DNA from: Patescibacteria group bacterium
GTDB taxonomy: Bacteria > Patescibacteriota > Patescibacteriia > PEXW01
Reading direction: 5' to 3'
DNA length: 64,000 nucleotides
Assembly (NCBI GenBank): GCA_038065235.1
Contig: JBBTRK010000006.1
Coordinates: 3,255-67,254, forward strand
Below, piece by piece: positions 6,802 to 43,154 of this stretch. The translations under genes and the position numbers were made by a program. Under the pieces are notes generated by a model that saw nothing but the letters and a program-made list of their open reading frames with translations, did not search any database and had not been told where the DNA came from. Numbering within the stretch: the first letter of the stretch is position 1; every line of letters starts with the position of its first letter.

Positions 6802-6897
6802 GTCATTCTGAGTCCCGCAGTAGCGGGACGAAGAATCTTGCCGGACTTTCCGGGTAGCAAGATCCTTCCCCCTCGATGGGCTCGGGGTCAGGATGAA
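6802..6897. repeat. Structured palindromic intergenic repeat, subfamily 1 copy A (GTCATTCTGAG...GAAGAATCTTGC...GCAAGATCC...TCAGGATGA); contains GTCCCGCAGTAGCGGGAC hairpin
   Basis: Seen directly: nested inverted repeats; same architecture at about 23567, 29017, 34012. Confidence 0.7.
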
Positions 6898-7231: not shown

Positions 7232-9079
7232 TCATTTTTTTACCGCCCGTACAATCGCCCTGGCATCAATCCCTTCGTAGGCCAGGAGCTGTTCGGGTGT
7301 GCCGCTGCGGGGAATTTTGCGGACGGCGAGTGAGGTAACTTTTGCAAGATTCCCAACCACTTCTCGTACCGCGTCGGCAATGCCACCTTCAGCGACGTGG
7401 TCCTCGACGACGATAAGGTGCTTGGTCTGGCGAGCGGCCCGGAGCAACGTCACTCGGTCAATTGGCTTCACGCTGTATAGGTCAATGACACGGACGTTGA
7501 TCTTGCGCTTGAGTAGTTCGTTGTAGGCTTTTGCAGCTTCGTGGACCGTGATGCCAGCAGCGATAATCGTCGCCCGGTCTTTCCGGCTTTCGGCCAGAGT
7601 TTTGCTGCCGCCAATGGGGAAGGCCCCGGTATTCTTATAGAGCACAGGCAGCTTCTCCCGCGTCGTGCGGATGTACACGATGCCTTTAGCGCGGGCGGCT
7701 TGTTCCACTAACTTTTCTGTACTCACTGCATCACTTGGGTACAGTACGGTGCTATTGAACGTAGACCGGAACATGGCAATATCCTCCACGCCCATTTGTG
7801 AAGCGCCGTCGTGGCCAATGGAAGCGCCGGCGTGGGAACCGCACAGGACGAGGTGTGCATCGCTCAAGGCTGCCATGCGGATTTGATCATGTGCCCGCGT
7901 TAAGAAAGCGGCAAAGGTCGATGCGAACGGTGTCTTGCCGCGTCGGGTCATGCCCAGCGCCGTGCTCACCATGTTCTGCTCGGCAATGAACATTTCGTAG
8001 AAGCGCTTGGGCTGTGCTTTCGCAAAAACTTCGGTCATGGTGGAGTTGCTCGTCTCGGCATCTAGCACCACGAACTCGGGGTACGCTGGAGCAATATGCG
8101 CCAGCGCCGTGCCGTACGCTTCACGTGTGGCGACGAGTGCACCGCGCGTGTAGTGGAATGGTTTCGCGGGTTTCCGTTTCAAAACCTTTGGTAGTCGTCC
8201 ATGCGGTTTCGCTACAACACCATGGATGCGTTGCGCTTTGCCGAGTTCATCCAATGCCTGGGCGAGCTGCACCTTGGTGAGCGCCTTGCCGTGCCAGCCG
8301 TTCTTGTTCTCTAAAAATCTCACGCCTTTCCCCTTTACCGTTTTCGCGAGGATGATCGTGGGCTTGTTGCTCTTCGCGAGTGCACGACGGTAGACCTTCG
8401 CGATTGCGTCGAGGTTATGACCATCGACAGTAAACGTTCGCCAACCAAACGCGGCAAAGCGTTTGGCGTACACCTGCACGTTCCAGCCCAGCATGGTTTG
8501 TCCGCGCTGGCCGAGCCGGTTGATGTCGGCAATGGCAATGAGATTATTCAGTTTGTAGTGACTCGCGAGCTGCGCCGCTTCCCAGATTTGCCCTTCGGCC
8601 AGCTCGCTATCACCGAGTAGCACGAAGGTCCGGTACGGCAGTTTGTCCATCCTGGCGGCCAACGCCATGCCCAACCCAACCGAAAGGCCTTGGCCGAGCG
8701 AACCAGTGGCTGCTTCGGCGTATGGGAAAGATGAAGGAATCGGGTGGCCTTCGAGTTGGCTGCCGAACTTTCGCAAGGTGAGAAGCTCGCGTTCGGGAAT
8801 AATTCCGGCCGCGGCGTAGAGTGAATAGAGCAAGGGTGCGGCATGGCCTTTTGAAAAAATAATCCGGTCGTTGGTTGGGTTCTTTGGTTTCTTCAGGTCA
8901 GCGCGGAAGAAGCCACCGAAGAACAGCACTGCCATAAGGTCTGTAGCCGAGAGCGACGAGGTAGCGTGGCCAGAGCCGGCGGCCGTGGTCATCTGCAATA
9001 TCCAGCGGCGGATTGTGAGCGCGAGTGCGGTAACTTGTTTCTGCGTCATGGGTACAGTGTACCACTCCCATCCTGCCAT
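7232..9079 (-). CDS. tkt: Transketolase (single chain with TPP-binding and C-terminal domains; start possibly at Met-11, about 9049)
   Basis: 615 aa; GSGHATSSLSATDLMAVLFF..., GHPIPSSFPYAEAATGSLGQGLSVGLGMALA, ...GASIGHDGASQMGVEDIAMFRS are transketolase hallmarks. Confidence 0.85.
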   Translation of the reverse strand: MAGWEWYTVPMTQKQVTALALTIRRWILQMTTAAGSGHATSSLSATDLMAVLFFGGFFRADLKKPKNPTNDRIIFSKGHAAPLLYSLYAAAGIIPERELLTLRKFGSQLEGHPIPSSFPYAEAATGSLGQGLSVGLGMALAARMDKLPYRTFVLLGDSELAEGQIWEAAQLASHYKLNNLIAIADINRLGQRGQTMLGWNVQVYAKRFAAFGWRTFTVDGHNLDAIAKVYRRALAKSNKPTIILAKTVKGKGVRFLENKNGWHGKALTKVQLAQALDELGKAQRIHGVVAKPHGRLPKVLKRKPAKPFHYTRGALVATREAYGTALAHIAPAYPEFVVLDAETSNSTMTEVFAKAQPKRFYEMFIAEQNMVSTALGMTRRGKTPFASTFAAFLTRAHDQIRMAALSDAHLVLCGSHAGASIGHDGASQMGVEDIAMFRSTFNSTVLYPSDAVSTEKLVEQAARAKGIVYIRTTREKLPVLYKNTGAFPIGGSKTLAESRKDRATIIAAGITVHEAAKAYNELLKRKINVRVIDLYSVKPIDRVTLLRAARQTKHLIVVEDHVAEGGIADAVREVVGNLAKVTSLAVRKIPRSGTPEQLLAYEGIDARAIVRAVKK

Positions 9080-9119
9080 AGAGAAAACGCCGTCCGGGGT
9101 GGGGACGACGTTTTGAAGA

Positions 9120-9476
9120 TCAGGCTTTGGGTTTTGGGTGACCTTTAACGAGGAGCGTGTGCCCCAGGTGATAGCAGACGATGCCAGCGAGGCAAACGTA
9201 CCAGCCAGTGCCGAGGCCGAGGTGCGCGGAGTATGCGATGAGCGTTAGGCCAACGAATCCAGCCGACAACGTAATCGCGCCCTGCCAGGATACATACCAC
9301 GGTCTTGCCAAGCCGGCGACGAACGAGAGGATGGGTATCCAGATAATGCCCTGAGCTTTCGGGACGTTCGCTATCTCGACGAATACCAGCCACATGATGA
9401 TTACAATCGCTGAAACGCCAACGCCAATGCCGAAGAGGATCTGGTTCGCGCGTTCCTGCGCGGTTTGTTCAGTCAT
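9120..9476 (-). CDS. Hypothetical membrane protein (3-4 TM helices)
   Basis: 118-aa ORF, hydrophobic throughout (IVIIMWLVFVEIANVP..., LSFVAGLARPWYVSW). Confidence 0.4.
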   Translation of the reverse strand: MTEQTAQERANQILFGIGVGVSAIVIIMWLVFVEIANVPKAQGIIWIPILSFVAGLARPWYVSWQGAITLSAGFVGLTLIAYSAHLGLGTGWYVCLAGIVCYHLGHTLLVKGHPKPKA

Positions 9477-9576
9477 GACAACTCCTTTTGCAATGAGCTT
9501 TCTTCAATCTTCTGGCTATCCAATCATAGTTCGAGTGTTCCGTCAAGCCTAGAGCGAACCCTGGTATACTGCCCAC

Positions 9577-10173
9577 ATGCAGCTCATCTTCGCCACGCAC
9601 AATCCTGGTAAGGTCGTTGAAATGAAGCAAATTCTCCACGGCCTGCCGTTCGAAGTCATGAGTGCAGATGACGCTGGGGTCCATGAGGATGTGGTGGAAG
9701 ATGGGGTGACGTTCGAGGAGAACGCGCTGAAGAAGGCGCGGTTTGTGAGCCAGAGGACCGGCCAGTGGGCGGTAGCTGATGACTCGGGCATTTCTATTGA
9801 TGCGCTGGACGGCGCACCCGGCGTGTTTTCGGCACGGTGGGCGGGAGATGACGCGACCGGCGAGCAACTCGTGGCGTACACCCTGAAAGAGTTGGATGGT
9901 ATTCCCGAGCACCGGCGGAGCGCGTGGTTCGAATCCTCAGCTGCACTCGTCTCACCGGACGGGCAGGAGTGGGTGTTCACCGGCAAAGTGGAAGGCATGA
10001 TCCCCATGGCACCGCGCGGGACACCGCGGGAACGGTTGCCCTACGACGTCATCTTCATTCCCGAAGGTCACACGAAGACCTTTGCCGAGATGACGGATGA
10101 CGAGAAGAACAGCTTGAGCCATCGGGGAGAAGCGTTCCGCCAGCTCAAGGACTTTCTCGGCAACCTAGAGTAG
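9577..10173 (+). CDS. rdgB: Non-canonical purine NTP pyrophosphatase (RdgB/HAM1, dITP/XTP pyrophosphatase)
   Basis: 198 aa; LIFATHNPGKVVEMKQIL, FEENALKKARF, ADDSGISIDALDGAPGVFSARWAG, SHRGEAFRQL are Ham1-family motifs. Confidence 0.85.
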   Translation: MQLIFATHNPGKVVEMKQILHGLPFEVMSADDAGVHEDVVEDGVTFEENALKKARFVSQRTGQWAVADDSGISIDALDGAPGVFSARWAGDDATGEQLVAYTLKELDGIPEHRRSAWFESSAALVSPDGQEWVFTGKVEGMIPMAPRGTPRERLPYDVIFIPEGHTKTFAEMTDDEKNSLSHRGEAFRQLKDFLGNLE

Positions 10174-10176
10174 CGA

Positions 10177-11175
10177 ATGGCTACCAACCCATTTGCGAAG
10201 GAAGCGGCGCGCGTTGCACGAGCAACGGGTTTTCGGCTCGGCGCGCTCCTCTACACCGCGCGGCACTATGGCCGGCAGTACCGGAACGCGATCTACCAGG
10301 GCACGTTCCGTGGCAAGCCCGCGGTGCTGAAGCTGTACGACGAGCCGCAGCCGACTGACGAGCCGCGGGCACTCGCGGCTTTTAATCGGTCGAAACGTAG
10401 TACTATCCTCCACGCGCCCAAGCTGTACGCGTCGGGCATCGTGTCACCCACGCGTGGTTGGTTGATTATGGAGCGCCTGGCAGATCAAGGTCATTTTTTA
10501 CACTCGCCACTCTCCCCTGCTGATCGAGAAGAATTCCTACGCGTGTTCATGGCGTACCGCCAGAGCTTTCCCACGAAGCCGCACCGGCCGCTGACGCTGC
10601 TGGAGCAGCTCCCAGCACACGAGTACCACACCGTTCGGATTAGCCGGTGGCTGCAGCTCGCGGTGGATACGGAGATTGCTAGGCCGTTGCGGCAGCAGGC
10701 ACTCTCCGGTAAGACGTTTGCCCCACTGTACGAGGCGGCCCTCGTGCTCTTGCGAAAGGAATTTAAAAATCGAAGAATGCTCTGGTGCCACGGCCATGTG
10801 AAGCCGAAGGAGATTTTCCAGTGCGCAGATGGCTCGTACGCCCTGACGGACTTCGCGCACACGCGCATGTACCCCGAAGGCTACGAGCTCGCGTTCATCA
10901 TCTGGGCAGACTGGATGCTGCCTGGCAACTGGCGGCTAGCGTACAGCCAGTGGAAAAAACCCATTCGCGAGTGGCTAGCGCTCATCCGCCCCCTGGCCGT
11001 GAAGCTTAGGTACAAACGTGTCGACGCACTTCTGCATGCAAGTTTGGTCGAACGTACGCTTGGTACCATCCTCGCGGATGTTGAGTCACTTGACCTCTCG
11101 TACGCCGAACGGCGGGGACGGCTGAAGCACTTGTTTCGATTGTTGCGAGAATTGCTCGATGGTCAAACATTGTAA
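10177..11175 (+). CDS. Protein-kinase-like fold phosphotransferase (APH/choline-kinase-like), specificity unknown
   Basis: 332 aa; catalytic-loop-like HGHVKPKEIF and DFG-like ALTDFAHTRMYP; starts 4 nt after rdgB stop. Confidence 0.45.
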   Translation: MATNPFAKEAARVARATGFRLGALLYTARHYGRQYRNAIYQGTFRGKPAVLKLYDEPQPTDEPRALAAFNRSKRSTILHAPKLYASGIVSPTRGWLIMERLADQGHFLHSPLSPADREEFLRVFMAYRQSFPTKPHRPLTLLEQLPAHEYHTVRISRWLQLAVDTEIARPLRQQALSGKTFAPLYEAALVLLRKEFKNRRMLWCHGHVKPKEIFQCADGSYALTDFAHTRMYPEGYELAFIIWADWMLPGNWRLAYSQWKKPIREWLALIRPLAVKLRYKRVDALLHASLVERTLGTILADVESLDLSYAERRGRLKHLFRLLRELLDGQTL

Positions 11176-11180
11176 CCTAT

Positions 11181-11993
11181 ATGCATAGCGTCATCGAAGC
11201 AATTGTACAGCGTCGAAATAAAAGTGTACCTGTTCAGGATGGCAAGAAAATTGGCCTGGTGCTGTACGGCGGGGTCATGGGCGGCATTCGGGGTGCCGGA
11301 GCGATGATTGCTTTGGAGGAAATGGGCTTGGCACATGCTTTCGACTGCATCTACACGAATTCTGCGGGATTTGCGAATGCGTCTTACCTTTTAGCTGGGG
11401 CAACACAGCTAGGGACTTCTATATACTACGAGGATCTCGCGAGTTGGAAGTTCATTAACCCTTTCCGGCTTTGGAAGATTGTGGATATTGACTTCCTAAT
11501 TTCCGTCATGCGGGAAGGTAAGCACTTACCAATTGAAAATATTCTTGCGTCTCACACAAAGCTGTTTGTTGCGCTACAGAATGTGCAAAAACATCAAGCC
11601 GAGTACCTTGAAGTGCATAGTGAGCCGAGTGAGCAGTACTTGGAACTCATGCGGGCTGCAACCTCAATACCATTTCTTCACCCTGGTACCGTGAATATTC
11701 ACGATAAGCCATACATGGACATACCGTTGCACCAGCCAGATTTGCACATTGATAAAGCTTTAGCCAATGGCTGCACCGAGGTTCTTGTAATAGCAAATTA
11801 CTCTAGTCAACTTCCTATAGGGCTCATAGCTGACCGACGAGTGTGTATCATTCAACCCGCACCGTCGTGGAAGCTTGCGCGTCTTGAGCGGCAGTCTACA
11901 AGACTACAGCTAGCATGTGTACAGATGGGGACGCTGGTGTTTCAATCATTTGGGGTTGAGAGAGAAATAACATTAGGGTATGCAAAGCTTTAA
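11181..11993 (+). CDS. Patatin-like phospholipase
   Basis: 270 aa; oxyanion-hole motif LVLYGGVMGGIRGAG and nucleophile-elbow-like YTNSAGF, consistent with patatin family (catalytic Ser-Asp dyad). Confidence 0.65.
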   Translation: MHSVIEAIVQRRNKSVPVQDGKKIGLVLYGGVMGGIRGAGAMIALEEMGLAHAFDCIYTNSAGFANASYLLAGATQLGTSIYYEDLASWKFINPFRLWKIVDIDFLISVMREGKHLPIENILASHTKLFVALQNVQKHQAEYLEVHSEPSEQYLELMRAATSIPFLHPGTVNIHDKPYMDIPLHQPDLHIDKALANGCTEVLVIANYSSQLPIGLIADRRVCIIQPAPSWKLARLERQSTRLQLACVQMGTLVFQSFGVEREITLGYAKL

Positions 11994-12303
11994 CCAACGT
12001 GTTTTTGCCGTGGTGCGGAAAATTCCCAAAGGCCGCGTGGCAACGTACGGCCAGATTGCTGCACTCATCGGTAGTCCTCGCGCGGCGCAAGCAGTGGGCT
12101 GGGCGCTGCACTCGCTAGATGCAAGGCCAGATAATAGTGTACCGTGGCAGCGCGTTATCAATCGGTTGGGGTATATTTCTACAACTTGTCTTGAACATAC
12201 CGCCGACGAGCAGGCCTTCCTATTACAAAAGGAAGGGGTGAAAGTTATCAAGCAGAAGAAGATGTGGAATGTCGATTTAGAGAAGTATCTTTGGAAGCCA
12301 TGA
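11980..12303 (+). CDS. Alkyltransferase-like protein (ATL; MGMT DNA-binding domain with Trp replacing the active-site Cys)
   Basis: 107 aa; KIPKGRVATYGQIAALIGSPRAAQAVGWAL...VPWQRVIN: MGMT fold but PCHRV is replaced by PWQRV, as in Atl1/YbaZ-type ATLs; overlaps patatin gene by 14 nt. Confidence 0.7.
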   Translation: MQSFNQRVFAVVRKIPKGRVATYGQIAALIGSPRAAQAVGWALHSLDARPDNSVPWQRVINRLGYISTTCLEHTADEQAFLLQKEGVKVIKQKKMWNVDLEKYLWKP

Positions 12304-12310
12304 TATATTA

Positions 12311-12339
12311 TTAAACCTGCTCAATAGGTGTGCTATAAT
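12311..12339 (+). promoter_or_regulatory. Sigma-70-type promoter (TTAAAC-17 nt-TATAAT) ending 6 nt before the ATG at 12346, leaderless arrangement
   Basis: Perfect -10 TATAAT at about 12334-12339, 17-bp spacer, -35-like TTAAAC. Confidence 0.5.
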
Positions 12340-12345
12340 GGTGAT

Positions 12346-13020
12346 ATGAAAATTGCATTGCAGAAACGTGCTATAATATTGCGTCGAGCAGGTTGGTCGT
12401 ATAACATTATTGCATCTCGACTACATGTATCAAAAAGTTCTTTAAGTCATTGGCTTCGGAGTGTCCCATTTTTTCCAAACAGCACTGTACGGCGGCGGAT
12501 TCGTGAAGGGCCCGCTAAATCAGCGGCACAAAGTGTAGCTCGTAAACTCGCGCGTTTGACTCTGGTTAAGAGAGAGGCTGTGAAAGAATTGAGAACATTG
12601 AATGATCGTGATTGGTTTATGCTGGGACTCGGACTCTACATTGGTGAGGGGACAAAGGCGTATGAAAATATTACCATCGTTAATGCCGATGTTGGGGTTA
12701 TTAAGTTGGCCATTCGTTGGTTTACGAAAATTGGGAATTTAAACAAACAGCATTTCTCCGTTACCCTACATATCTACCCCGATATTTCGGCTGTAAAAGC
12801 AATTTCTTACTGGTCAAGAAATACGAGCATACCAAGGACACGTTTTACAAAGGTAGTTATTGACAAGCGAACGAATAAATCTCGTATTCGACATGGGCGC
12901 TTGCCTTATGGGACGGCTCATGTAACAGTGCGAAGCCATGGTGATGTGCGAAGAGGTGTGGACTTGCACCGAAAGATTATTGCTTGGATCCAACAGATTA
13001 ATAGATTTTTGCGGGTATAG
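12346..13020 (+). CDS. HTH + LAGLIDADG-like putative homing-endonuclease-family protein (free-standing); stop codon overlaps the 5' end of tRNA-Gly
   Basis: About 224 aa from ATG 12346; N-terminal HTH-like segment (GWSYNIIASRLHVSKSSLSHWLR) and LAGLIDADG-like motif WFMLGLGLYIGEGTK; AT-rich relative to neighbours. Confidence 0.45.
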   Translation: MKIALQKRAIILRRAGWSYNIIASRLHVSKSSLSHWLRSVPFFPNSTVRRRIREGPAKSAAQSVARKLARLTLVKREAVKELRTLNDRDWFMLGLGLYIGEGTKAYENITIVNADVGVIKLAIRWFTKIGNLNKQHFSVTLHIYPDISAVKAISYWSRNTSIPRTRFTKVVIDKRTNKSRIRHGRLPYGTAHVTVRSHGDVRRGVDLHRKIIAWIQQINRFLRV

Positions 13021-13084
13021 TTTAATGGTCAAACATCTCCCTTCCAAGGAGAAGTCGGGAGTTCGATTCTCCCTACCCGCTCCA
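13011..13084 (+). tRNA. tRNA-Gly (anticodon TCC), CCA encoded
   Basis: GCGGGTA acceptor / TACCCGC, anticodon loop CTTCCAA, T-arm GGGAGTTCGATTCTCCC, 3' TCCA. Confidence 0.85.
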
Positions 13085-13401
13085 CTCGACGCGTCCCGCT
13101 ACGCGGGACTTGCTCGTGGTCTTCGACCAGCTATTGAGTAGCGCAAAGAATGTTAAGTTGCGATGCGTCGAGTGTCCCGAGCGCTTGTCGAGGGACAACC
13201 ACGCGAAGCCTCGCTTAACCCCACGACCGCGTGCTCGTCCCGCAGATATGGGACTGCGCGCCACGCTCGTAGGAACCCCGAATGGAACCGAACGGGTGCG
13301 ACAACCCCAAAATATAGTATGTTGCTTTTTTCCTACAAATGTGTTTTTTTGGTACACTAATACTCTATAGGTATTGTGGGCAATATAAAAACATCCCAGG
13401 T

Positions 13402-42994: not shown

Positions 42995-43154
42995 TGGTGG
43001 GCAACGTAGGAGTCGAACCTACGACCTTCTCGGTGTAAACCCGCTTCGACTCGCGGAGCTCGCCGACGCGAGGCGAGCGAGACGCTCTGGCCTGGGTGCT
43101 CCCGATGGGTCGCACCCGTCCCGCAGTAGCGGGACCCAGCTGAGCTTCTCATAA
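42995..43154 (-). pseudogene. Disrupted tandem tRNA-Val(TAC)-like copy: intact T-arm/3' end and anticodon arm, but 38-nt and 49-nt insertions (anticodon-stem/loop junction and D-loop) and a non-pairing 5' acceptor strand
   Basis: Aligns to tRNA-Val 16 nt upstream (shares CTACGACCTTCTCGGTGTAAAC, GAGACGCTCT, AGCTGAGC); D-loop insert contains GTCCCGCAGTAGCGGGAC, identical to the hairpin in repeat A. Confidence 0.45.

What the first reader, a model, noticed from the sequence alone, without database searches (positions are those of the whole stretch)
12311..13084. Free-standing LAGLIDADG-like HTH protein gene with leaderless consensus promoter, ending inside tRNA-Gly
An AT-rich 224-aa ORF combines an N-terminal HTH-like segment with a LAGLIDADG-type motif (WFMLGLGLYIGEGTK), and its TAG stop lies 10 nt inside the 5' end of tRNA-Gly(TCC). 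A TTAAAC-17-TATAAT promoter ends 6 nt before the ATG, implying a leaderless mRNA. In small bacterial genomes, LAGLIDADG enzymes are usually embedded in rRNA/tRNA introns or inteins. A free-standing copy fused to the 5' flank of a tRNA, compositionally distinct from its neighbours, suggests a domesticated or recently inserted homing-endonuclease-like element.
Basis: partly seen in the sequence, partly recalled or inferred. Interest (0 to 1): 0.55.

Follow-up and report, generated by a model that had tools for sequence, protein, structure and literature searches.

The report
Homing-endonuclease-like gene docked on tRNA-Gly
This is a small selfish-looking gene for a DNA-binding, LAGLIDADG-type nuclease-like protein that sits, in many distantly related ultra-small bacteria (Patescibacteria), directly against the start of the tRNA-Gly(UCC) gene, which makes it one member of a large unannotated family that lives next to tRNA genes.

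Summary
A 224-aa ORF (12346-13020) follows TTAAAC-17-TGcTATAAT by 6 nt, and its TAG is bases 8-10 of tRNA-Gly(UCC) (13011-13084).

The protein is a transposase/resolvase-type HTH, a long helix and a divergent single LAGLIDADG-type domain. G-E-G-x-K is invariant in 80 homologues and aligns with I-DmoI E117/K120. Pfam LAGLIDADG models do not hit it, and AlphaFold plus Foldseek did not recover the fold. Homology rests on profile evidence (hhalign 97%, E 9e-12, to a two-domain archaeal LAGLIDADG_3 protein).

Every locus that could be scored (69 of 70 full-length homologous loci; one is cut at the contig end) has the gene on the same strand hard against tRNA-Gly(UCC). Half of the 57 scanned share TTGAAC-17-TAnnnT (6 nt to the ATG in most), implying leaderless mRNA.

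The gene is patchy: about 80 hits in 185,579 species genomes and 1 of 41 sampled tRNA-Gly(UCC) loci. Gene-free loci have tRNA-Pro 3-11 nt from tRNA-Gly, against 717-748 nt where the gene is present. Two copies are broken. In 3 of 6 close pairs the gene is younger than its flanks. Relatives abut other tRNAs, including in phage tRNA arrays.

Best reading: a free-standing homing-endonuclease element, not recently inserted here.

The parts
12311..12316 (+). -35-like hexamer TTAAAC (family consensus TTGAAC)
   Evidence: Sequence. TTGAAC at the same distance in 22 of the 29 loci that match the pattern, out of 57 scanned.
12331..12339 (+). TG-extended -10 box TGcTATAAT. It lies 17 nt after the -35 and 6 nt before the ATG, implying a leaderless mRNA that starts at or next to the A of the ATG.
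   Evidence: Sequence. Spacing is 17 nt in 29 of 29 matching loci, TG extension in 24 of 29, and 6 nt to the ATG in 22 of 29. Background rate is 0.089 per kb. No transcript data.
12346..13020 (+). 224-aa ORF: HTH plus a LAGLIDADG-type protein (identical to NCBI MAG protein AAB424_01050, Patescibacteria group bacterium)
   Evidence: There are 237 homologues in the word-indexed search. The profile search found 335, 3286 and 5580 clusters at E <= 1e-30, 1e-10 and 1e-3.
12346..12465 (+). N-terminal three-helix HTH (residues 1-40), transposase/resolvase/homeodomain-like type
   Evidence: HTH_23 at E 2e-4 in this protein, and in 34 of 40 homologues with best E 1.4e-7. AF2 helices 2-14, 19-26 and 30-36 at pLDDT about 90-94.
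12481..12591 (+). Long linker helix (residues 46-82), preceded by the conserved P-Y-x-P-N motif
   Evidence: AF2 helix H46-82. Alignment A1. Any role, such as dimerisation or a spacer between DNA-binding modules, is inferred only.
12604..13011 (+). Divergent single LAGLIDADG-type domain (residues 87-222), with an insertion of about 45 residues between the third and fourth predicted strands
   Evidence: I-DmoI domain 2 at E 1-2e-3. PADLOC 'HEase' at E 2e-4. hhalign to the N-domain of Woesearchaeota LAGLIDADG_3 proteins, probability 97.4%, E 9e-12 over 93 columns. The fold was not confirmed by Foldseek.
12613..12657 (+). Motif WFMLGLGLYIGEGTK. G100-E101-G102 and K104 are invariant. E101 and K104 align with I-DmoI residues 117 and 120.
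   Evidence: Alignments A1 and A2. PDB alignments, offset +16. The catalytic role of I-DmoI E117/K120 is from my own knowledge.
13011..13084 (+). tRNA-Gly(UCC) with encoded CCA. Its bases 8-10 (TAG) serve as the ORF's stop codon.
   Evidence: ARAGORN and Rfam at 70.7 bits. A same-strand tRNA-Gly(UCC) follows the homologue in 69 of 70 full-length loci.
13093..13109 (+). GC-rich hairpin GTCCCGC-tac-GCGGGAC, 8 nt after the tRNA. It has no T-run and may be a 3' processing or termination structure.
   Evidence: Function not tested.

Best explanation
The region 12311-13020 is a compact, free-standing homing-endonuclease-type selfish element of about 710 bp. It consists of its own leaderless promoter plus one gene, and it occupies the spacer immediately 5' of the tRNA-Gly(UCC) gene.

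Inferred mechanism:
- The protein dimerises through its single LAGLIDADG-type domain, with E101 and K104 forming the active site.
- The N-terminal HTH adds DNA contacts.
- The dimer recognises the gene-free version of the tRNA-Gly 5' junction and cuts it.
- Repair from a gene-carrying copy then copies the element in, with the highly conserved tRNA genes on one or both sides serving as homology arms.

Once resident, the element is inherited vertically for long periods, decays occasionally, and is sometimes re-acquired. In this window it is an old resident, not a recent arrival.

No room for a separate promoter is left in front of the tRNA. The element's promoter therefore probably also transcribes tRNA-Gly as an ORF-tRNA co-transcript. 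RNase P cleavage at the tRNA 5' end would then remove the last two sense codons and the stop codon. Only unprocessed transcripts could give normally terminated protein.

What is shown: the anatomy, the family-wide position, the promoter conservation, patchiness with gene-free sites, broken copies, lower synonymous divergence than the flanks, and relatives beside other tRNAs.

What is inferred: nuclease activity, the target site, homing, co-transcription and the non-stop consequence.
For: 1. Fixed position. In 69 of 70 full-length homologous loci from many Patescibacteria lineages, a same-strand tRNA-Gly(UCC) follows the gene (one locus is cut at the contig end). In the 67 loci with an intact gene, the gene ends between 98 nt inside and 69 nt before the tRNA start. 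17 loci have exactly the window's 10-nt overlap.

2. Patchy occurrence.
- Only 82 pattern hits, giving 73 loci, in one genome for each of 185,579 species.
- 1 of 41 evaluable metagenomic tRNA-Gly(UCC) loci carries it.

3. Gene-free sites.
- tRNA-Pro(UGG) is followed by tRNA-Gly(UCC) after 3, 6 or 11 nt in loci L139, L109 and L169.
- The distance is 717-748 nt in gene-carrying loci L010, L017, L019, L020 and L026, and 956 nt in L181.
- The tRNA-Gly of L169 (no gene) and L181 (gene present) are 98.7% identical.

4. Decay. L064 has an in-frame TAA and L065 has a frameshift.

5. The gene is younger than its surroundings. Identity at four-fold degenerate sites, gene versus flanking genes:
- L007/L070: 0.66 versus 0.31 (p = 1e-5)
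- L004/L005: 0.57 versus 0.33 (p = 8e-4)
- L040/L051: 0.62 versus 0.38 (p = 5e-5)
L019/L024 and L010/L018 share only the promoter-gene-tRNA block.

6. Catalytic signature. G-E-G-x-K is invariant in 80 sequences and aligns to I-DmoI 117/120. LAGLIDADG homology is supported by hhalign at 97% and by PADLOC HEase.

7. Relatives beside other tRNAs.
- L071 and L072 lie between tRNA-Tyr and tRNA-Thr(GGU), followed by tuf.
- L159 lies between tRNA-Leu and tRNA-Gly(GCC).
- Phage contigs L074-L076 carry relatives inside tRNA arrays. L075 ends 8 nt before tRNA-Val.

8. The HTH of L071 matches DNA-binding modules of phage HNH homing endonucleases (phrog_7545, E 9e-10).

9. The promoter is conserved as part of the unit.
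Against: - There is no direct evidence of nuclease activity or of a homing event.
- Pfam LAGLIDADG models do not hit this protein or any of 40 homologues.
- No presence/absence polymorphism was found in this species. No gene-carrying and gene-free pair with homologous flanks on both sides was found.
- The gene-free and gene-carrying tRNA-Gly genes compared are identical over their first 46 nt. It is therefore unexplained how a carrier allele would escape cleavage, unless recognition includes the displaced upstream spacer.
- The left flank is not conserved between lineages: tRNA-Pro, tRNA-Arg on the other strand, or a protein gene as here.
- Gene GC tracks host GC (r = 0.86), protein identity correlates with tRNA identity (Mantel r = 0.33), and 68 of 70 copies are intact. 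These observations fit long vertical residence, which domestication would also produce.
- The prevalence estimates are not restricted to Patescibacteria.
Confidence: 0.6

Rival explanations
1. A domesticated descendant of such an element. The protein would no longer promote its own spread. It would act as a DNA-binding regulator, repressing its own leaderless promoter and thereby setting transcription of the downstream tRNA-Gly(UCC), in the way WhiA is a LAGLIDADG-derived regulator.
For: - 68 of 70 copies are intact and many positions are invariant.
- Gene GC tracks the host, and there is partial congruence with the tRNA.
- There is no polymorphism within the species.
- The promoter region is conserved beyond the two hexamers. 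At consensus level it resembles tRNA-Gly positions 6-23, as an operator might.
- The tRNA has no obvious promoter of its own in the window.
Against: - The distribution is patchy, and gene-free tRNA-Pro/tRNA-Gly junctions work without the gene.
- Broken copies exist.
- The gene is younger than its flanks in 3 of 6 close pairs.
- The catalytic-type Glu and Lys are invariant, whereas WhiA-type regulators have lost them (the WhiA statement is from my knowledge).
- Relatives sit beside several different tRNAs and in phage tRNA arrays.
Confidence: 0.2
2. The protein is not a LAGLIDADG protein at all. It would be an HTH transcription factor with a different alpha/beta C-terminal domain, and the GLYIGEG stretch and the weak I-DmoI match would be convergent. 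Its adjacency to the tRNA would reflect an operon-like functional link, for example a tRNA-related function.
For: - No Pfam LAGLIDADG hit in 41 proteins.
- Foldseek on two AF2 models gives only weak OmpA-like and IspF-like matches, and the model reads as beta-alpha-beta-alpha-beta.
- hhalign against the canonical C-domain of L073 finds nothing.
Against: - hhalign gives 97% probability, E 9e-12 over 93 columns, to the N-terminal domain of proteins whose other half is a Pfam-significant LAGLIDADG_3 domain. That is a domain which by architecture must be the partner LAGLIDADG domain.
- That N-domain alone hits LAGLIDADG_3 at E 0.002.
- Relatives L071, L072, P0198 and P0219 give sub-threshold LAGLIDADG_3 hits.
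- I-DmoI matches at E about 1e-3 with both the single sequence and the profile, and the active-site Glu and Lys align. PADLOC HEase matches at E 2e-4.
- The AF2 low-confidence segment is exactly the motif and first strand.
Confidence: 0.1
3. An inactive relic. The endonuclease function would be lost, and the gene would persist only because its promoter has become the sole promoter of an essential tRNA, so deleting the element is counter-selected.
For: - The ORF abuts or overlaps the tRNA, so no separate tRNA promoter fits.
- Old residence is shown by the 52% nearest homologue.
- In 24 of 67 loci the stop codon lies inside the tRNA. In L006 the ORF reads through the whole tRNA, as if the 3' end were poorly policed.
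Against: A relic ORF would not keep 224 codons open with more than 20 invariant residues across 80 sequences at about 45% identity. Promoter retention alone needs only about 40 bp.
Confidence: 0.07

Closest known systems
I-DmoI and other archaeal LAGLIDADG_3-type homing endonucleases
   Same: The motif helix ends in G-E-G-x-K, followed by the beta-hairpin/helix segment. The profile match covers I-DmoI residues 94-156, with E117 and K120 aligned to E101 and K104. The domain is also homologous to the N-domain of two-domain Woesearchaeota LAGLIDADG_3 proteins.
   Different: I-DmoI is a two-domain monomer encoded inside an rRNA intron. This protein has one domain, an insertion of about 45 residues before the last strand and an extra N-terminal HTH. 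It is free-standing and is missed by the Pfam models.
Single-domain LAGLIDADG endonucleases of CPR rRNA insertions (for example I-ShaI, PMC11270868)
   Same: Same host phylum. Single-domain architecture that implies a homodimer. The target is a highly conserved RNA gene.
   Different: Those enzymes are encoded inside rRNA insertions or group I introns and are recognisable LAGLIDADG proteins. This one lies outside the RNA gene at its 5' edge, brings its own promoter and carries an HTH. The tRNA is not interrupted.
Phage T4 SegB, a free-standing homing endonuclease in the T4 tRNA gene cluster (PMC2330249)
   Same: A free-standing endonuclease gene lodged between tRNA genes. Its spread relies on cleavage nearby and co-conversion of the flanking tRNA region. 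Relatives of the present family also sit in phage tRNA arrays.
   Different: SegB is a GIY-YIG enzyme in a phage. This is a LAGLIDADG-type protein in a cellular genome, at one fixed position relative to one tRNA.
WhiA (LAGLIDADG-derived transcription regulator with an HTH)
   Same: It combines LAGLIDADG-type and HTH modules in a bacterial chromosomal gene. It is the model for the domestication rival.
   Different: From my knowledge, WhiA has two degenerate LAGLIDADG domains without catalytic acids, a C-terminal HTH, and near-universal vertical distribution in its clades. Here there is one domain with an invariant Glu, the HTH is N-terminal, and the distribution is patchy.
I-TevI autorepression (a homing endonuclease that binds an operator in its own promoter)
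   Same: A possible parallel. The conserved promoter region of this family resembles the tRNA-Gly D-arm region at consensus level, as an operator mimicking the target would.
   Different: This is purely an analogy recalled from memory. There is no locus-specific covariation (own 9.0 against permuted 8.93 of 18) and no binding data.

Membership tests
LAGLIDADG homing endonucleases | Motif helix ending in G-(D/E)-G, supplying the catalytic acid | tested here: met
   LGLGLYIGEGTK. G100, E101, G102 and K104 are invariant in 40 and in 80 sequences. They align with I-DmoI 117/120.
LAGLIDADG homing endonucleases | Significant match to a curated LAGLIDADG profile (Pfam LAGLIDADG_1/_2/_3) | tested here: not met
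   No hit for the window protein at E <= 10, and none for 40 homologues at E <= 1. Only sub-threshold LAGLIDADG_3 hits in relatives (E 0.03-0.08). An indirect link goes through the L073 N-domain (hhalign 97%).
LAGLIDADG homing endonucleases | alpha-beta-beta-alpha-beta-beta-alpha core fold with a helix-helix dimer interface | tested here: inconclusive
LAGLIDADG homing endonucleases | Sequence-specific double-strand cleavage of the element-free allele | not testable with these tools
   Needs biochemistry. The target site is unknown.
Free-standing homing endonuclease genes | Intergenic, own expression signals, not inside an intron or intein | tested here: met
   No intron family in the window. 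The conserved promoter-ATG architecture lies between neighbouring genes or tRNAs.
Free-standing homing endonuclease genes | Presence/absence at a fixed site among related genomes, with signs of transfer and decay | tested here: met
   Gene-free against occupied tRNA-Pro/tRNA-Gly spacers. 1 of 41 sampled loci occupied. 2 of 70 copies broken. Gene younger than flanks in 3 of 6 pairs. Caveat: no pair has both flanks homologous.
WhiA-like domesticated LAGLIDADG regulators | Two degenerate LAGLIDADG domains lacking catalytic acids, a C-terminal HTH, and a conserved vertical distribution | tested here: not met
   Single domain, invariant Glu, N-terminal HTH. No LAGLIDADG_WhiA Pfam hit. Patchy distribution.
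Intron-encoded endonuclease in a tRNA group I intron | ORF embedded in an intron that interrupts the tRNA | tested here: not met
   The tRNA-Gly is continuous and complete. There is no intron RNA match and no tRNA 5' remnant upstream of the ORF (mean z 0.27).
Integrase-type genomic islands at tRNA genes | Integrase gene, insertion at the tRNA 3' end, flanking direct repeat of the tRNA end | tested here: not met
   The element lies at the 5' end, is a 0.7-kb single gene and has no integrase. The only repeat linking its ends is a 12-of-16 match between the -10 region and the tRNA D-arm.

The most novel reading that the evidence does not exclude
This locus would be one representative of a large, unannotated clade of HTH-LAGLIDADG endonucleases: 335 protein clusters at E <= 1e-30 and more than 3,000 at E <= 1e-10.

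The clade would be specialised on the short spacers between tRNA genes in Patescibacteria, Chloroflexota-like bacteria and jumbo-phage tRNA arrays. It would use the near-universal tRNA genes themselves as target and homology arms, which would allow spread across very distant lineages.

Once inserted, the element's leaderless promoter would take over transcription of the essential downstream tRNA, making the element hard to lose. In about a third of cases the tRNA's own U8-A9-G10 supplies the stop codon. RNase P maturation of the tRNA would then turn the messenger into a non-stop mRNA and throttle endonuclease production.
Probability: 0.3. Interest if true: 0.7.

Novelty: new variant of a known kind. 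Interest (0 to 1): 0.55.

Why it matters
If correct, this adds a new habitat and architecture to homing endonucleases. They would be free-standing, HTH-extended, single-domain LAGLIDADG enzymes docked on the 5' edge of tRNA genes in ultra-small bacteria and in phage tRNA arrays.

- It would explain a recurrent 'hypothetical HTH protein' in Patescibacteria genomes.
- It would show that tRNA spacers, like rRNA, are invaded in this phylum.
- It would offer natural enzymes that recognise tRNA-gene DNA.
- It gives a concrete, testable case of a selfish element capturing the promoter of an essential tRNA, with tRNA processing coupled to the translation of its own messenger.
- It gives 29 comparative examples of a leaderless promoter architecture in an uncultured phylum.

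Tried and rejected
1. Recent insertion. Rejected: the nearest homologue is 52-53% identical, the GC offset is family-wide, and all contigs read that carry the identical neighbour have the gene.

2. Insertion inside the tRNA with a duplicated 5' part. Rejected: local alignment of 150 nt upstream of 58 ORFs against their own tRNA gave mean z 0.27. The window's 12-of-16 repeat (12327-42 against 13014-29) reflects a consensus-level resemblance without locus-specific covariation.

3. An intron-encoded enzyme or a split tRNA, including L071/L072 where the gene fills the glyT slot. Rejected: no tRNA-Gly exons or intron RNA were found.

4. The tRNA-Pro 3' end and tRNA-Gly 5' end forming a pseudo-palindromic target. 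Dropped: by eye only about 4 of 7 positions are symmetrical, and the spacers differ at 3, 6 and 11 nt.

5. A conserved separate tRNA promoter inside the ORF 3' end. None was found, apart from TATAAT-like boxes in some Saccharimonadia-type loci.

6. Structure-based confirmation.
- Foldseek against PDB, full-length and domain-only models, and against BFVD gave nothing significant.

7. Annotated phage genomes (INPHARED, tblastn) gave no match.

8. A defence-system role. PADLOC gave only the 'HEase' model.

9. My tRNA-Gly pattern for the metagenome scan turned out to be generic bacterial tRNA-Gly, covering all three anticodons. It gives gene-free sites and a rough prevalence, not a Patescibacteria-specific rate.

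10. No close pair of gene-carrying and gene-free loci with homologous flanks on both sides was found.

11. Four literature searches found no description of this family or arrangement.
Full report
**1. What is in the window**

The + strand carries an ATG at 12346 and a TAG at 13018-13020, giving a 224-aa ORF.
- tRNA-Gly(UCC) occupies 13011-13084 (ARAGORN; Rfam 70.7 bits).
- The last ten bases of the ORF are therefore the first ten bases of the tRNA. The stop codon is tRNA positions 8-10.
- Upstream lie TTAAAC (12311-16), a 17-nt spacer, TGcTATAAT (12331-39) and 6 nt to the ATG.
- A generic sigma-70 scan does not report this site, because TTAAAC matches TTGACA at only 3 of 6 positions.
- The gene has 43% G+C, against about 54% for the rest of the window.
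- Only one copy is present in the 64 kb.

The upstream neighbour is a 107-aa MGMT-type DNA_binding_1 protein. The downstream neighbours are type II/IV secretion ATPase and platform genes.

**2. The protein**

Pfam gives only sub-threshold HTH matches. HTH_23 scores E 2e-4 here, and it is found in 34 of 40 homologues with best E 1.4e-7. No LAGLIDADG model hits this protein or any of the 40 homologues. NCBIfam gives nothing useful.

Against PDB sequences the only hits are I-DmoI.
- E is about 2e-3 with the single sequence and 1e-3 with the family profile.
- Query residues 78-139 align to I-DmoI residues 94-155.
- This places E101 on residue 117 and K104 on residue 120. From my knowledge these are the catalytic Glu and an active-site Lys of the second I-DmoI domain.
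- PADLOC's 'HEase' model matches the same stretch at E 2e-4.

In alignments of 40 and 80 homologues, G100, E101, G102 and K104 are invariant. So are R88, N113, W125, W156, F167, D173, R175, K178, L186, G189, T190 and G204.

The strongest homology evidence is indirect. A Woesearchaeota protein (locus L073, 297 aa) has two motifs.
- Its C-terminal half is a significant Pfam LAGLIDADG_3 domain (E 4e-10).
- Its N-terminal half scores LAGLIDADG_3 at E 0.002 on its own.
- That N-terminal half aligns to the family profile with hhalign probability 97%. E is 4e-11 for the single sequence and 9e-12 for a four-sequence profile, over 93 columns.
- The alignment includes the helix inserted after the third strand.

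AlphaFold2 did not settle the fold.
- Full-length model: pLDDT 81.8. Domain-only model: pLDDT 81.7, pTM 0.75.
- The models show a three-helix HTH, a 37-residue helix and an alpha/beta domain. The motif loop and first strand are at low confidence.
- Foldseek against PDB (both models) and BFVD found no LAGLIDADG structure, with best E 0.02 to OmpA-like and IspF folds.

LAGLIDADG membership is therefore supported by sequence profiles and by the active-site signature. It is not supported by curated models or by structure prediction.

**3. The position is a family trait**

The protein has 237 homologues of about 220-226 aa in the word-indexed search, nearly all from Patescibacteria. A full profile search found 335, 3,286 and 5,580 clusters at E <= 1e-30, 1e-10 and 1e-3.

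A scan of one genome per species (185,579 species) gave 73 loci.
- In 69 of the 70 full-length loci, a same-strand tRNA-Gly(UCC) directly follows the gene. The remaining locus is cut at the contig end.
- In 17 loci the overlap is exactly the window's 10 nt.
- In 24 of 67 intact loci the stop lies 10-98 nt inside the tRNA. In the others the ORF ends 0-69 nt before it, mostly within 20 nt.

The promoter is also shared.
- 29 of 57 loci have TTGAAC (at most 1 mismatch), exactly 17 nt, then TAnnnT. 24 of the 29 have a TG extension and 22 of the 29 have 6 nt to the ATG.
- The background is 0.089 such sites per kb. 29 of the 73 sites in all these loci are at this one position.
- With the -10 box ending 6 nt before the ATG, the messenger should be leaderless. 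This is an inference, as there are no transcript data.

**4. Selfish element or ordinary gene?**

*Evidence for an element*

(a) Rarity. Only 82 motif hits were found in 185,579 species genomes. In a metagenome sample of tRNA-Gly genes, 1 of 41 evaluable UCC loci carried the gene. The sample is not restricted to Patescibacteria.

(b) Gene-free sites.
- tRNA-Pro(UGG) is followed by tRNA-Gly(UCC) after 3, 6 or 11 nt in L139, L109 and L169.
- In gene-carrying loci with the same two tRNAs the spacer is 717-748 nt (L010, L017, L019, L020, L026) or 956 nt (L181).
- In L019 the -35 box starts only 5 nt after tRNA-Pro.
- The tRNA-Gly genes of L169 and L181 are 98.7% identical.

(c) Decay. L064 has an in-frame TAA and L065 has a frameshift.

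(d) Age relative to flanks. Identity at four-fold degenerate sites, gene versus flanking genes:

| Pair | Gene | Flanks | Fisher p |
|---|---|---|---|
| L007/L070 | 0.66 | 0.31 | 1e-5 |
| L004/L005 | 0.57 | 0.33 | 8e-4 |
| L040/L051 | 0.62 | 0.38 | 5e-5 |

Three other pairs show no difference. The more AT-rich gene raises chance identity somewhat, but not to these values. L019/L024 and L010/L018 share nothing but the promoter-gene-tRNA block.

(e) Relatives beside other tRNAs.
- L071 and L072 (Chloroflexota-type MAGs) have a 208-215-aa HTH-LAGLIDADG relative between tRNA-Tyr and tRNA-Thr(GGU). It ends 4 nt before the latter and is followed by tuf. This is the slot that glyT occupies in the classical thrU-tyrU-glyT-thrT-tufB cluster (the E. 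coli cluster order is from my knowledge).
- L159 has a 220-aa relative between tRNA-Leu and tRNA-Gly(GCC), ending 11 nt before the tRNA.
- Three viral contigs carry relatives inside tRNA arrays. One is a 224-aa protein ending 8 nt before tRNA-Val.

(f) The HTH of L071 matches DNA-binding modules of phage HNH homing endonucleases.

*Evidence for long residence or domestication*
- Gene GC tracks host GC (r = 0.86), with a mean offset of about -5 points. The window's -11 points is at the extreme of that trend.
- Protein and tRNA identities correlate (Mantel r = 0.33).
- 68 of 70 copies are intact.
- The nearest non-identical homologue of the window protein is 52-53% identical.
- All 22 contigs read that carry the identical upstream protein also carry the gene, judged from the 3 places shown and 19 reported as similar.

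**5. Mechanism proposed**

*Shown*
- A 0.7-kb unit (promoter plus ORF) fills the spacer 5' of tRNA-Gly(UCC).
- The unit is patchy, sometimes broken, and sometimes younger than its flanks.
- It carries a conserved nuclease-type signature.

*Inferred*
- The protein forms a homodimer through the single LAGLIDADG-type domain, as single-domain CPR enzymes such as I-ShaI do (PMC11270868).
- The HTH extends the recognition site.
- The enzyme cuts gene-free alleles at or near the tRNA-Gly 5' junction, and repair copies the element in.
- The conserved tRNA genes provide homology, as in T4 SegB-mediated inheritance of the tRNA region (PMC2330249).

*Unknown*
- The target is unknown.
- The gene-free and occupied tRNA-Gly genes compared are identical over their first 46 nt. 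Immunity of carriers would therefore require that recognition include the displaced upstream spacer.
- The left flank varies between lineages.

*Expression*
- There is no room for a separate tRNA promoter in the window, and no conserved one was found in the family.
- tRNA-Gly is therefore probably co-transcribed from the element's promoter.
- RNase P cleavage at 13010/13011 would remove codons CGG GTA TAG and leave a non-stop messenger.
- Both points are inferences that transcript mapping can test.

**6. Comparison and novelty**

The element works like a free-standing homing endonuclease gene.
- Its nuclease domain is closest to I-DmoI/LAGLIDADG_3 enzymes, but it fails the curated-profile test and the fold test was inconclusive.
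- It differs from CPR rRNA-insertion endonucleases in lying outside the RNA gene and carrying an HTH and its own promoter.
- It differs from WhiA in domain number, domain order, retained Glu and patchy distribution.
- It is not an intron, an intein or an integrase island.

Four full-text searches found no description of this family or arrangement. That does not prove there is none. I class it as a new variant of a known kind.

**7. Verdict**

- Confidence in the selfish-element reading is 0.6.
- Domesticated regulator is 0.2.
- Not LAGLIDADG is 0.1.
- Relic is 0.07.
- Interest is 0.55.

Noticed in passing
window 13085-13340 (hairpins at 13093-13109, 13174-13196, 13237-13254); also 6812-6829 and 43118-43135: The 256-nt GC-rich non-coding stretch after tRNA-Gly holds three GTCCCG...CGGGAC hairpins and folds better than shuffles (z = -3.5). 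The identical hairpin GTCCCGCAGTAGCGGGAC recurs at 6812 and at 43118 (next to tRNA-Val). There are 9 matches to the pattern against 1.2 expected. This may be a REP-like or terminator-like repeat family.
   Followed up: partly
window 12327-12342 vs 13014-13029; loci L001-L070: The -10 region of the element's promoter resembles tRNA-Gly positions 6-23. It matches 12 of 16 in the window. The family mean is 9.0 of 18 in one register, against 4.8 +/- 0.85 in other registers. There is no locus-specific covariation (permuted 8.93). It could be chance (TATAAT in the D-loop), an operator that mimics the target, or a trace of origin.
   Followed up: partly
window 12330-12339 and 12368-12377: The exact 10-mer GTGCTATAAT (the extended -10 box) occurs again 38 nt downstream, inside codons 8-11 of the ORF. 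About 0.4 such repeats are expected by chance in this stretch.
   Followed up: no
L071 2575-3713 and L072 (Chloroflexota-type MAGs): In the cluster tRNA-Thr(UGU), tRNA-Tyr, [gene], tRNA-Thr(GGU), tuf, an HTH-LAGLIDADG relative occupies the slot where glyT sits in the classical cluster. No tRNA-Gly is present there.
   Followed up: partly
L006 2986-3750: One homologue (254 aa, P0044) has no stop before or early in the tRNA. It reads through the whole tRNA-Gly gene, so its C-terminal tail is a translation of the tRNA.
   Followed up: no
L074, L075, L076 (IMG/VR contigs of 41-252 kb): Phage contigs with dense tRNA arrays (6-11 tRNAs in 6.5 kb) carry distant relatives of the family between the tRNAs. 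One array includes a predicted tRNA-SeC(TCA), possibly a suppressor tRNA.
   Followed up: partly
L073 2549-3747 (Woesearchaeota MAG): A free-standing two-domain LAGLIDADG_3 protein lies directly after a ribosomal protein L37e-like gene. Its N-domain is the closest canonical link to the bacterial family.
   Followed up: partly
representative proteins P0171, P0172, P0179, P0190, P0198, P0199, P0219, P0221: Family members of 424-576 aa contain two or three HTH modules or tandem copies of the family domains. They may be single-chain, pseudo-dimeric versions.
   Followed up: partly
window 11181-12303: A patatin-like gene (11181-11993) overlaps by 14 nt a 107-aa MGMT-type DNA_binding_1-only protein (11980-12303). 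That protein has the PxxRV motif but appears to lack the alkyl-acceptor Cys context, so it may be an alkyltransferase-like protein.
   Followed up: no
L159 about 9079-10401: The relative beside tRNA-Gly(GCC) sits in a tmRNA, tRNA-Leu(UAA), [gene], tRNA-Gly(GCC) run, so another structured-RNA gene cluster is invaded.
   Followed up: no
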